Positions 30,001 to 33,000 of a DNA stretch of 64,000 nt are shown here, in pieces. Every line of letters begins with the position of its first letter. Positions within the stretch are counted from its first letter, which is position 1. The position numbers are program-made. The stretch is from Thalia democratica. Its lineage: Eukaryota. The DNA lies in contig CBDBBG010000166.1 of assembly GCA_965202585.1 (NCBI GenBank), positions 1-64,000 of the forward strand. Direction: 5' to 3'.

Positions 30001-33000
30001 CGTCCAGCTTGGCCGGGGAGATTATCAAGGACCTGACTCCGTCCTCCTTGATGACCAATCTGTGACTGTAATCTTCCTGCACTTCGTTACCTGTATATAA
30101 AAATGTTTAATTGTTGTGCTTTATTAAACATGTACAATGTATCATAATGCTAATAAATATTGCAAATGTGGTTTAAGAATTTATGGTTAAAGTTTTTCTT
30201 TGACTAAGTTGGTTACTATAATATGTTTTTAATGGTTTTAAGTATAACAGTCTTTGGATAACATTTTCTTAATAGTCAAGTTATGTTGGTAGATTATATT
30301 CTGAAAAAAAAAATTAATTACTTTTTAAGTAACACCTTTTTTAACTATCTATTTAGTATAAATTTTGTACTGTTCAGTTATTAGTTAGTTTTAAATAGTA
30401 TTTTAATTTCAACCGCTTTTCATCATATATAAAAGTTGTACAACGTGAATTTTTTCAACTACCAACTTAAACAAATATTCGAATACTCTTCCAAAAATTG
30501 AGTAAGCTAAATTCTAAAAATGTTTCGCGATAAGTCAAGAGTGCTTAGGCTGGCTCTTAAACTCTTTAAGTAGTAACATACATGAATAAACTAGCTATTT
30601 AAAGAAAGCGTTTGTTCATTAAAAAAGCCTAGTGTACCTTAGCTATGTCGTTTATTAGTAAAGTATTTATCAATTACAACTTAAAACTGTACAAAACTAA
30701 AACAAGATAAAATTAACTGATAAAATAGTTTACCTTTGCAACTGGTTATACACACGTATACGTTTAAATCTAGCTGTATCCAGCTATGAAAAGCATCTTG
30801 ACCATTGTTATTTGTTTCAACTTTAATGTTATTTCTTAATAAATTTTCTTGTTCCTTAAGATTATTTACTCCCAGTCTAACAGAAGCAGAGCGTTTAGGT
30901 AAAATATCATTATTTAATAGTTTCTCCTCTTGTTTAAAACCATTTACTCCTAGTTTGATTGAAGATGAGCGTTTAAGTTTGTTATCATTAATAAATATTT
31001 TTTCTTGTTCTTTAATGCCATTGGACCCCAGTCTATCCGAAGTAGAGCGTTTAAGTTTGGTATCATTATTGAAGAAGTTTTTACTTTCATCAATGTTTTC
31101 TGCGCTGTTATTTACTTTGTTTCTTTTTAAACTTCTTCTAAACTTTCTCGGCGCTAGCAGTTTGTACCTGGACTTGGGAGCAAAGATATTTTTTTCGCTT
31201 TTTATCGACTTCACGAACCCCGAATCGCTAGAATCCGTGAAAGACTCGGATCTCTGTACCTTTTTAACGTCATCCTCGCTACAGCTAATTTCCTGTTCAC
31301 CGTTTACTTTAACCTTGTTTTCTTTTTCTTTCAATATGTTGCTTTTAGACTCTTTTTTCTTTGAAAATTCACTAAACGACTTGTTTAAGCTTGACCTGAT
31401 ATTTTTTAAGCTTTGTGAAAAAGTCAAATTTTCCGCTTCTCGAGTTTTGTTAAATTTTCGAACCTGCTTCGGAGTTCTAAAGCTTCTTCTGGACTCCGGA
31501 TTTTTGTTTATGTCGTCTCTTAAAAACGGATTACTAGACACCCTTTTTAGCTTGTTCAAGCTGTTCAGTTTACCTTTTTTGACTTTTGCATCTTTTTTGT
31601 CACAGTGCATGTTTATGATAAGTTGAGGCTGGTTAAACCTTACTGCTATTCCATATATGTAGCTTTCCATAAACTAATACAAAAAAAAATTAAATAAGTT
31701 CAAAAATCATTCTGTTTAAAATACTAATAAACTTAAATATCATAAAACACTATTATAATAGTGAAAAAAAAGTACAAACTGGTTTTAAAATACAAATTAA
31801 CGTTTTACGAATAAACAATACAAAAACCTAGCTGTAACCTACAAATTTTAGGTTTTTATATAAATAAAAACAATAGTTTACAAATCGAAAGCTGCTGTAT
31901 AAACAAAATCAAACCGTCGCAAACCGCGTTGCCTCGCGAACCTACATGAGCTTTTTTTTCTAGCAAAATTTTGTCGCACGAAATAATAAACTTGAAACAC
32001 TTGCCAGCAACAAAACAGCTTTTTTTTGTAAACTTTCTCTCAAAAACGAGCTGCCCATTCACTCAAGTGGCAGCACGAGGGGCTGTTGAAGTTTTATTTT
32101 TATTTTTTGTAGTAGCTTTGCCCGCTTTATTTTTGTTTGCTCAAAAGACAGCAAAGAGTCACTTTCCGATTGAAGTTTGCTTTTTGTTTGTTCAATTCTG
32201 CTTGCTCAGTCGGTGATAAAATACTTAGACTTGACGCCTCACGACTTTCCTTTTAGGTTTTATACTAGTCGTATGAAGCTACTGATTAACTTATTATCTT
32301 ATACTAAACAATCAACTTAAGTAATAACTAGTTTAGTTTAAATAAATTTATTTCTAAATTTGAATTAATTTTTATAAATAAACATTTAAATTATGAAGTT
32401 ATAAAGAAACCCTTAGAATTTAAAAGACAACTATTTGAATTAATATATACCGGTACACTTTTTTCTTTTAAGTTTTACAAAAAAAACAGCCATGGTAAGT
32501 TTCATTTATTTCTACATAGTCCGTTTCATTAACAAAATTTAATTGCTGAACTATTTCAACTTTCAATCTGTCTTATACTAAATAAGCCTTATTCCAACAA
32601 TTTTTGAATAATCAAACACCTTCTCCATAAAAAACTTTACTAAAGTCTTATTACTAAATTTAAAAGAAAAAAAAATTAATAAAAATAACTGCAAAGTACA
32701 GTTGTGTTTCAAATTTTTTTGTAAAACAGCCATTCATTAAAATGCAGTATTTTTGATTTTTTGTGCAACAAGTGCTATTAACAGCTACTTCAGCTTGAGT
32801 ATCAAAAGTATATTTGCTAGTGTAAGAACAGATTATTTGCTTAGGTTACTGCAGAAGCTTTTAAAAGTTGTTTAAAATTATTTGTTTGTCTAAGAAAAAT
32901 TTCACGAGTAAAAGTTTAAAAATTACGACTTAATAGCTAAATGTGGTAAACAAGCTTTGAAAAGTTCTAATGTTTAGTCGAACTTTTAAGATAAATAACT

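What the first reader, a model, noticed from the sequence alone, without database searches (positions are those of the whole stretch)
30734..32240. Alternative N-terminus for titin hidden inside an Ig-splitting intron
A 937-nt stop-free exon sits in the intron between the two halves of an Ig domain. Its acceptor frame is incompatible with upstream exon 33095, but its donor is in phase with downstream exon 30090, so it behaves like an alternative first coding exon. A GC-richer patch at 31.9-32.24 kb could be its promoter or 5' UTR. The product would drop Z1-Z2 (the telethonin/T-cap-binding domains in vertebrates) and the following Z-disc Igs. It would replace them with a basic, Lys/Ser-rich 312-aa head carrying three 26-aa repeats, each with a K-R-S-x-S kinase-type site. 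That is an internally initiated near-full-length titin with a different Z-anchor; I know of no such isoform.
Basis: partly seen in the sequence, partly recalled or inferred. Interest (0 to 1): 0.68.

Follow-up and report, generated by a model that had tools for sequence, protein, structure and literature searches.

The report
Conserved coding exon inside titin intron
A 312-codon open reading frame inside an intron of a titin-like muscle gene is a real, conserved coding exon that probably gives the giant protein an alternative, basic, disordered head, but no transcript data could be checked.

Summary
On the minus strand an ATG at 31670 opens 312 codons that end at AAG|GTAAAC after 30734. This lies in the ~3-kb intron that splits one I-set Ig domain of a titin/connectin-like gene. 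The frame is far longer than chance: 330 codons against at most 171 in 1000 shuffles. One relative cluster exists among 1.84 billion representatives (299 aa, 71% identical over aligned residues, all four indels in frame). That is as conserved as a bona fide disordered titin exon (78% and 61% in two relatives). Conservation starts at the ATG and stops at an invariant Gly-Lys that spells the phase-1 donor: 16 of 20 residues identical before it, 3 of 15 after.

I therefore read it as a selected, lineage-restricted exon, most likely an alternative 5' coding exon spliced onto the second half of the Ig (confidence 0.5). A stand-alone nested gene is the main rival (0.25). The promoter role of the GC-richer patch is unsupported: an unspliced leader from it would carry up to four upstream ATGs. 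An acceptor sits 3 nt before the ATG. Only one of the three 26-aa KRSxS repeats is conserved. Internal-promoter titin (Cronos) is a precedent. No RNA evidence, relatives' DNA or joined model was examined.

The parts
30734..31670 (-). ATG-to-donor coding part of the intronic exon (312 codons + 1 nt; P0001)
   Evidence: conserved in P0002-P0005
31674..31689 (-). acceptor-like signal: T9 run, then GTATTAG; the TAG 31676-31674 is also the in-frame stop before the ATG
   Evidence: the pattern occurs once in the window (19 of 100 shuffles also gave at least one match, so not significant on its own)
30728..30733 (-). 5' splice site GTAAAC after AAG, phase 1; spelled as invariant Gly313-Lys314 in the relatives' read-through
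30681..30733 (-). read-through tail (17 codons + stop), poorly conserved (3 of 15 after Gly-Lys); read here as intron
30871..31070 (-). 78-nt tandem repeat (26-aa unit, 2.6 copies) carrying the KRSxS motifs; a single unit in the relative
33095..33207 (-). upstream canonical exon: first half of the fifth I-set Ig (profile 1-34), ends in phase 1
29926..30090 (-). downstream canonical exon: second half of the same Ig (profile 44-90), enters in phase 1; proposed splice partner
31901..32300 (.). GC-richer patch (0.34-0.41) in the intron; no function shown

Best explanation
The ORF is a genuine, lineage-restricted, protein-coding exon lying in the intron that splits the fifth Ig of a titin/connectin-like gene.

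**Proposed mechanism**
- It carries its own start codon. Its coding conservation ends at a conserved phase-1 5' splice site.
- It is therefore most likely an alternative 5' coding exon joined to the exon that starts at 30090.
- The product would be a titin-like isoform in which the Z1/Z2-like Igs, two more Igs, their linkers and half of the fifth Ig are replaced. The replacement is a 312-aa basic, Ser/Lys/Asn-rich, probably disordered head.
- That head holds several conserved blocks, some with basophilic-kinase-type Ser sites, and hydrophobic strand-like ends.
- The exon itself probably receives a short non-coding leader at the acceptor 3 nt before the ATG. The leader could come from an upstream leader exon. 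If the organism trans-splices, it could come from a spliced leader added to a transcript that starts inside the intron.

**Shown:** the ORF, its conservation, and the boundaries of that conservation.
**Inferred:** use of the junction, origin of the leader, disorder, phosphorylation, and any role at the Z-disc.
For: 1. **Open frame beyond chance.** 330 codons against a maximum of 164-171 in 2 x 1000 shuffles.
2. **One relative cluster.** One representative of 1,835,955,588 scored E <= 0.001: P0002, 299 aa, E 2.1e-93. Its cluster has 4 near-identical members, all with the frame open.
3. **Identity and indels.** 186 of 261 aligned residues are identical (71%). All four indels are in frame: 2 and 19 aa in one row, 25 and 26 aa in the other.
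4. **Neutral drift would close the frame.** Drift to about 69% amino-acid identity gives a mean of 8.6 stops, and 0 of 3000 simulated copies stayed open.
5. **As conserved as a canonical disordered exon.** Exon 2381-3829 of the same gene is 78.4% identical to P0006 and 60.7% to P0007.
6. **Sharp boundaries.** Residues 1-20 are 100% identical. 16 of the last 20 residues before the donor are identical, against 3 of 15 after the invariant Gly-Lys (Fisher p = 6e-4).
7. **Internal control on donors.** Three of 53 GT sites match the donor consensus at 7 of 9 positions. Only the one at 30734 is retained at the amino-acid level in the relative. The look-alikes at 31574 and 31116 are not.
8. **Phase.** The donor phase equals the phase of the downstream acceptor.
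9. **Leader.** An in-frame stop and an acceptor-like AG lie directly before the ATG. The canonical first coding exon likewise has an acceptor-like cag 12 nt before its ATG.
10. **Not a repeat or paralogue.** No other copy in the window, no Pfam family, no solved relative.
Against: - No RNA evidence of any kind was available.
- No protein joining this ORF to Ig sequence turned up. However, proteins over 2000 aa were not candidates, and the relatives come from unspliced genomic contigs.
- The phase match has a 1-in-3 chance. The donor scores only 7 of 9, like two other sites inside the ORF.
- The product would begin its Ig array with an orphan half domain.
- GC3 of the ORF is 0.35, unlike the Ig exons (0.69-0.86). 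It does resemble the AT-rich open frames at 8.8-10.1 kb, which have GC3 0.18-0.33.
- The read-through tail has the same length (17 codons) in both sequences. A nested gene with a fixed stop would also give that.
- Whether P0002 comes from another species or from a paralogous locus is unknown. Whether it lies in the same intron is also unknown.
Confidence: 0.5

Rival explanations
1. An independent gene nested in the titin intron on the same strand. The ORF is translated through the 'donor' to the stop at 30683-30681 (329 aa) and the mRNA is polyadenylated within the intron. It has no physical link to titin.
For: - A complete ATG-to-stop frame exists.
- The tail has the same length and a final Phe in both sequences.
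- AATAAA lies at 30656, 25 nt after the stop.
- Codon usage is unlike the Ig exons.
- There is no similarity to any titin sequence or any other family.
- The relatives were called as stand-alone 299-aa proteins.
Against: - Conservation collapses right after Gly-Lys: 3 of 15 identical against 16 of 20 before it.
- Poly(A)-like hexamers are common here, 14 in the 3-kb intron, so the one at 30656 is uninformative.
- The stand-alone calls carry no weight. The same kind of source reads a canonical titin exon into its flanking intron (P0006 N-terminus). Those contigs therefore look genomic and unspliced.
Confidence: 0.25
2. An exon used inside canonical transcripts rather than as a start. There are three versions.
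(a) A poison or terminating exon entered at 31673 from exon 33095. It reads 13 codons then a stop, giving a truncated Z-disc-only product or decay.
(b) A 30-nt in-frame micro-exon, 31673-31644, closed by GCA|GTAAGG.
(c) A 909-nt in-frame cassette entered at the AG 31644-31643. This would place about 303 aa inside the Ig.
For: - The acceptor at 31674 looks strong and is paired with the upstream donor in any canonical pre-mRNA.
- Version (a) follows directly.
- For (b) and (c), the frames work out when one search is read by hand. GCA|GTAAGG scores 5 of 9.
- The first 20 residues are 100% conserved. Overlapping splice signals could explain that.
Against: - (a) and (b) do not explain why 312 codons in another frame are kept open and conserved from the ATG onward.
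- For (c), the AG at 31644-31643 has a purine-rich lead-in and lies after an earlier AG. Residues 1-9, which would then be intron, are all identical in 3 of the 4 relatives (one differs at residue 3). The ATG is kept too.
Confidence: 0.12
3. No function: a chance or decaying ORF, a transposon relic, or a frame whose real coding strand is the opposite one (274 open codons at 30802..31626 on the plus strand).
For: - The sequence is low in complexity and A-rich, so the complement is also open.
- There is no family, fold or named relative.
- The AlphaFold2 model has mean pLDDT 36.6.
Against: - Shuffles never approach 330 codons.
- The frame is kept open with in-frame indels at 71% identity.
- It is single copy in the window, with only one relative cluster in the protein sets. 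That does not fit a transposon family.
- The start codon and donor coincide with the edges of conservation on the minus strand.
Confidence: 0.04

Closest known systems
Cronos, the internal-promoter isoform of vertebrate titin (PMC4720518, passages read; PMC12854356, passage read)
   Same: Transcription would start inside an intron of the titin gene. The protein would lack the Z-disc N-terminus and have its own initiator Met.
   Different: Cronos starts far downstream, in the distal I-band, and comprises A- and M-band domains. Its unique part is only 7-12 residues, made by extending the next exon upstream. Here the start would lie after only four and a half Igs, and a separate exon would supply 312 unique residues. 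Cronos has RACE, PCR and chromatin evidence; this case has none.
Isoform-specific exons and multiple products of giant muscle genes: vertebrate titin Novex exons (recalled; only the title of Bang et al. 2001 was seen, in the reference list of PMC12198301) and the Drosophila sallimus products Zormin, Kettin and Sls700 (PMC7039190, passages)
   Same: One giant Ig-array gene yields products with different ends and unique, non-Ig sequences.
   Different: There is no sequence similarity to any of them. Those exons are internal or 3'-terminal, or are defined experimentally. None that I saw replaces the Z1/Z2 end by a long unique head.
Same-strand nested intronic genes (general knowledge, not tested against a catalogue)
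   Same: A complete ATG-to-stop frame lies within a host intron, with no similarity to the host protein.
   Different: Conservation stops at a splice-donor motif, 17 codons before the stop.
Spliced-leader trans-splicing at unpaired acceptors in the tunicate Ciona (PMC1488885, passages read; PMC3074122, title and abstract start seen in the listing)
   Same: An acceptor sits directly before the start codon, and it would be unpaired in a transcript that starts inside the intron.
   Different: The organism of this window was not identified, so whether it trans-splices at all is unknown. No leader sequence was looked for.
Phospho-regulated disordered segments of titin (PMC5498327, title and abstract start seen in the listing only)
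   Same: A disordered, Ser-rich segment with basic residues before Ser, sitting in a titin-like protein.
   Different: There is no sequence similarity and no phosphorylation data. Counts of [RK][RK]x[ST] and Rxx[ST] are not above shuffles: 324 and 125 of 2000 shuffles reach them.

Membership tests
Titin/connectin-like host gene | N-terminal Ig pair resembling titin Z1/Z2 | tested here: inconclusive
   The first coding exon (41900-42025) has its best solved matches at residues 4-31 of titin Z1 (6fwx, 6sdb, 2a38, 1ya5), but per-domain E-values are weak, 9.5-16. The next exon matches titin chains best, including Z1Z2 residues 25-99. Other Ig proteins score nearly as well.
Titin/connectin-like host gene | Long array of I-set Ig domains with unique linker sequences | tested here: met
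   I-set matches for halves of six Igs between 28.7 and 42.0 kb, and more further down.
Titin/connectin-like host gene | A-band Ig/FN3 super-repeats and C-terminal kinase | not testable with these tools
   The gene runs off the window at base 1.
Alternative 5' coding exon of the host gene | Own start codon with the frame closed upstream | tested here: met
   ATG 31670 with TAG at 31676-31674. The ATG is conserved in all 4 relatives.
Alternative 5' coding exon of the host gene | 5' splice site in phase with the next host exon, and conserved | tested here: met
   Phase 1 on both sides. Gly-Lys is invariant at the end of the conserved block, while two equal-scoring look-alike sites are not kept.
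Alternative 5' coding exon of the host gene | Transcripts with the 30734>30090 junction | not testable with these tools
   No RNA data were available. The joined model was left out by instruction. No joined protein was found, which is weak evidence.
Alternative 5' coding exon of the host gene | A promoter or leader source | tested here: inconclusive
   The GC-richer patch exists but has no RNA family match or structure and no TGACGTCA site. Up to four upstream ATGs lie between it and the start.
Independent nested gene | Coding conservation up to its own stop codon | tested here: not met
   3 of 15 identical after Gly-Lys, against 16 of 20 before it. The sample is small.
Independent nested gene | Own polyadenylation signal | tested here: inconclusive
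   AATAAA at 30656, but there are 14 such hexamers in the intron.
Transposable element remnant | Multiple copies, or a transposon protein domain | tested here: not met
   No other copy in the window, no Pfam family, one relative cluster only. Genome-wide copy number was not testable.
In-frame cassette exon of the canonical transcript | Acceptor that keeps the frame of exon 33095 | tested here: not met
   The obvious acceptor gives a stop after 13 codons. The only phase-1 AG in the first 45 codons (31644-31643) has a poor lead-in (read by hand).

The most novel reading that the evidence does not exclude
A non-vertebrate titin is made in a second, internally started form. This form swaps the Z1/Z2 end, which is the telethonin-binding end in vertebrates, for a 312-aa basic, phospho-regulated head. 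The two most conserved and only hydrophobic, strand-like segments of that head are residues 1-20 and about 294-312. In this reading they complete the orphan half Ig that follows. The result would be a chimeric Ig carrying a ~270-aa regulatory loop, which anchors titin in a different way.
Probability: 0.07. Interest if true: 0.75.

Novelty: new variant of a known kind. Interest (0 to 1): 0.42.

Why it matters
If the junction is used, a titin outside the vertebrates has an isoform that keeps nearly the whole spring but not the canonical N-terminal Ig pair. This would show that the Z-disc anchor of titin can be exchanged by an alternative start. It would also give a natural experiment on what the N-terminal Igs are needed for. 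The ORF is, in addition, a clear case of a young, lineage-restricted coding sequence under constraint inside an old gene. If it proves to be a nested gene instead, it is an orphan gene of unknown role and of modest interest.

Tried and rejected
- **Family and fold searches on P0001.**
  - Pfam gave 0 families.
  - The solved-structure search gave one chance-level match at E = 1.1.
  - The ESM Atlas gave no usable hit for the whole protein. For residues 128-190 the best score was 0.79, below the level at which shuffled proteins already score.
- **AlphaFold2 on alignment A2** (5 rows): mean pLDDT 36.6, pTM 0.13, and 0 of 312 residues at 70 or above. It drew only a low-confidence helix at 84-100 and a hairpin at 294-310. 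The model was too poor for a fold search, so none was run.
- **Complex prediction** on the whole ORF protein and the translation of the downstream half-Ig exon, as two separate chains. The question was whether the head complements the half domain. The verdict was 'no answer' (score 0.00; the alignment was not used). This says nothing either way.
- **RNA genes.** None at gathering scores in the window and no tRNA. A permissive scan of 31650-32350 gave one chance-level bacterial sRNA match at E = 0.51. The fold of the GC patch is no better than shuffles, z = +1.2.
- **Repeat or transposon test.** The intron matches nothing else in the window except its own 78-nt repeat and one 54-nt AT-rich stretch.
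- **Paralogy with other unique exons.** None at E < 0.8.
- **Fused or longer forms.** 0 of 5679 candidates of 547-2000 aa matched.
- **A home-made Ig profile from window exons** failed to pick up the other Igs. I replaced it with pairwise phmmer and Pfam.
- **Off-frame query.** The third query was off frame, so its blank means nothing. It was redone.
- **Basophilic-site enrichment.** Not significant apart from the repeat-borne KRSxS.
- **Papers.** Hanashima et al. 2012 on ascidian connectin is not held. Searches listed no paper on an alternative N-terminal exon of titin next to the Z-disc Igs. This holds only for the library searched.
- **Organism.** It was not identified. I do not take the window for human: introns are 13-30% GC, and the closest relatives are 52-78% identical and unnamed.
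Full report
**What is there.** On the minus strand, an ATG at 31670 opens a frame of 312 codons (P0001). It runs to AAG|GTAAAC, and the last exon base is 30734. Read through the donor, the frame goes on for 17 more codons to a stop at 30683-30681. Directly upstream lie nine Ts and GTATTAG. The TAG of that motif closes the frame, and its AG looks like a 3' splice site, 3 nt before the ATG.

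The ORF lies in the ~3.0-kb intron (30091-33094) between two exons that are the two halves of one I-set Ig domain. The first, 33096-33206, matches profile positions 1-34. The second, 29924-30088, matches positions 44-90. The upstream exon ends with one base of a split codon, and the downstream exon starts with the other two. The ORF exon also ends with one base, so its donor fits the downstream exon. Entering the exon at 31673 from the upstream exon gives 13 codons and a stop. That includes the 78-nt repeat, the three KRSxS motifs 26 residues apart, the basic Lys/Ser/Asn-rich make-up (pI 10.0) and the modestly GC-richer patch at 31.9-32.3 kb.

**Is it more than chance?**
- The longest open frame in the intron is 330 codons. 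In 1000 shuffles of the intron the maximum was 164. In 1000 shuffles of the ORF segment it was 171.
- A search of 1.84 billion representative proteins, read without a length limit, found exactly one relative: P0002, 299 aa, E 2.1e-93.
- Its 90% cluster has four members from ENA and Logan on contigs of 1.3-2.5 kb. They differ at four residues and all have the frame open.
- Searches of the 5.8-billion set found nothing else. One of 2115 candidates of similar length matched, and 0 of 5679 candidates of 547-2000 aa.
- Window and relative share 186 of 261 aligned residues (71%). They differ by four indels, all in frame.
- A simulation of neutral drift on the ORF's own DNA reaches 69% amino-acid identity at about 0.14 changes per site. 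It then carries 8.6 stops on average, and 0 of 3000 copies stayed open.

The frame is therefore kept by selection.

**Calibration against a canonical exon.** I searched with a canonical, disordered exon of the same gene (2381-3829). It found two relatives, P0006 and P0007, 78.4% and 60.7% identical by the same measure. The intronic ORF is thus about as conserved as a bona fide unique-sequence exon of titin.

The N-terminus of P0006 aligns to the window's polypyrimidine tract and acceptor, that is, to intron. These unnamed contigs therefore look genomic and unspliced. That the relative was called as a 'stand-alone' 299-aa protein says nothing about splicing.

**Where conservation starts and stops.**
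- The first 20 residues are 100% identical.
- Further conserved blocks lie at about residues 38-54, 84-103, 139-185 and 295-307.
- Of the last 20 residues before the donor, 16 are identical.
- The Gly-Lys that spells G|GTAAR is invariant.
- Of the 15 residues after it, 3 are identical (Fisher p = 6e-4).
- Three of the 53 GT sites in and just after the ORF match the donor consensus at 7 of 9 positions. An identical AAG|GTAAAC, also in phase 1, lies at 31574. Only the site at 30734 is kept at the amino-acid level in the relative.

This is the main argument that 30734 is a used exon end and not merely a GT inside a longer coding frame.

**What it most likely is.** I read it as an alternative 5' coding exon of the titin-like gene (confidence 0.5). 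The host gene begins near 42025, with an exon whose best solved matches are the first residues of titin Z1. Upstream of the ORF it has four complete Igs, each split by an intron, plus unique linkers. All of these, and half of the fifth Ig, would be replaced by the 312-aa head.

The head is strongly hydrophilic except at its two ends. It has no family or solved relative. AlphaFold2 gives no confident fold, with mean pLDDT 36.6. This fits disorder, although the alignment is shallow.

Conserved Ser sites preceded by basic residues (KRVSS, QRSES, one KRSTS) suggest basophilic-kinase regulation. That is inference only. Such motifs are not enriched over shuffles, and two of the three KRSxS copies are a recent tandem expansion absent from the relative.

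**The leader.** No RNA family, structure or motif marks it. A leader read unspliced from it would contain up to four upstream ATGs.

The acceptor 3 nt before the ATG suggests instead that a short leader is spliced on. The canonical first coding exon has the same arrangement, an acceptor-like cag 12 nt before its ATG. The two ATG exons could therefore be alternative partners of one upstream leader exon.

Alternatively, the organism may be a tunicate, which I could not establish. Then a transcript starting inside the intron would leave this acceptor unpaired. That is the condition for spliced-leader trans-splicing (PMC1488885, passages).

**Rivals.**
- **Nested stand-alone gene (0.25).** It fits the complete frame, the equal tail length and the foreign codon usage: GC3 is 0.35 against 0.69-0.86 in Ig exons. 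It does not fit the collapse of conservation at the donor. The AATAAA after the stop is uninformative, because there are 14 such hexamers in the intron.
- **Use inside canonical transcripts (0.12).** This could be as a poison exon, a 30-nt micro-exon or a 909-nt cassette. The first two do not explain the conserved long frame. The third needs a poor acceptor and would make the conserved ATG and first nine residues intronic.
- **Non-functional ORF, transposon relic or opposite-strand coding (0.04).** This is contradicted by the shuffles, the in-frame conservation and the single-copy status.

**Comparison with what is known.** Internally started titin is known. Cronos starts in an intron of the distal I-band, adds only 7-12 unique residues and comprises A- and M-band domains (PMC4720518; PMC12854356). 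The present case would start after four and a half Igs and add a separate 312-codon exon.

Ascidian and amphioxus connectins are described (PMC12198301, passages). The ascidian paper itself is not held. The searches listed no paper on an alternative N-terminal exon next to the Z-disc Igs. That is a statement about that library only. I class the finding as a new variant of a known kind.

**What stayed unchecked.**
- No transcript data could be consulted.
- The DNA of the relatives' contigs could not be fetched. So there is no dN/dS, and no check of the AG and GT or of the flanking exons in the relative.
- The spliced model was examined exon by exon only. The joined sequence was neither built, searched nor folded.
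- Supplementary files of papers were closed.
- The organism was not identified. I do not take the window for human, given its very AT-rich introns and relatives that are only 52-78% identical and unnamed. I did not try to trace the unnamed records.

Noticed in passing
window 12396-54658; 15 sites, including 41992 and 42010: The palindrome TGACGTCA occurs 15 times against 0.44 expected from shuffles. Two copies lie 18 nt apart just after the canonical ATG of the titin-like gene. Four lie in the neighbouring gene at 54.0-54.7 kb, and none in 30-33 kb. Whole-window shuffles ignore the GC-rich exons, so the excess is overstated. Many sites may simply encode Asp-Val-Thr.
   Followed up: partly
window 2385-2400 (-): The canonical exon changes frame here relative to both relatives. 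P0006 aligns in one frame down to 2390 and in another from 2394 to 2185. The window reads a stop right after an A-run, where the relatives continue into an Ig. This is a one-base slip: an assembly error, a polymorphism or a real interruption.
   Followed up: partly
window 42026-42045 (-): The canonical first coding exon has an acceptor-like tttttaaacag 12 nt before its ATG. This mirrors the acceptor 3 nt before the ORF's ATG. Both may receive a common leader.
   Followed up: no
window 31644-31673 (-): Between the acceptor at 31674 and GCA|GTAAGG lie exactly 30 nt. In the frame of the upstream exon these are open (and reading). A 10-codon in-frame micro-exon is therefore formally possible. It overlaps the 100%-conserved start of the ORF.
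   Followed up: partly
window 31569-31577 (-): A second AAG|GTAAAC, identical to the donor and also in phase 1, lies inside the ORF. Its Gly is Ser or Asn in the relatives.
   Followed up: yes
window 8784-10146 (-): Two long AT-rich open frames of 305 and 165 codons, with GC3 0.33 and 0.18, lie within the gene. They are Lys/Asn/Ser/Glu-rich and resemble the ORF in composition. Whether they are exons was not tested.
   Followed up: no
window 30802-31626 (+): The complement of the ORF is also open for 274 codons. This is expected for A-rich low-complexity coding sequence, and no evidence points to its use.
   Followed up: partly
window 28.7-42.0 kb (-): Each of the first six Igs is split by an intron, but at different profile positions: about 22, 37, 38, 53, 37-43 and 55-62.
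   Followed up: yes
window 54020-55911 and 62979-63557 (-): Exons of a neighbouring upstream gene give only weak, sub-threshold Pfam matches (RNF180 C-terminus, a RING-type zinc finger). The gene was not identified.
   Followed up: no
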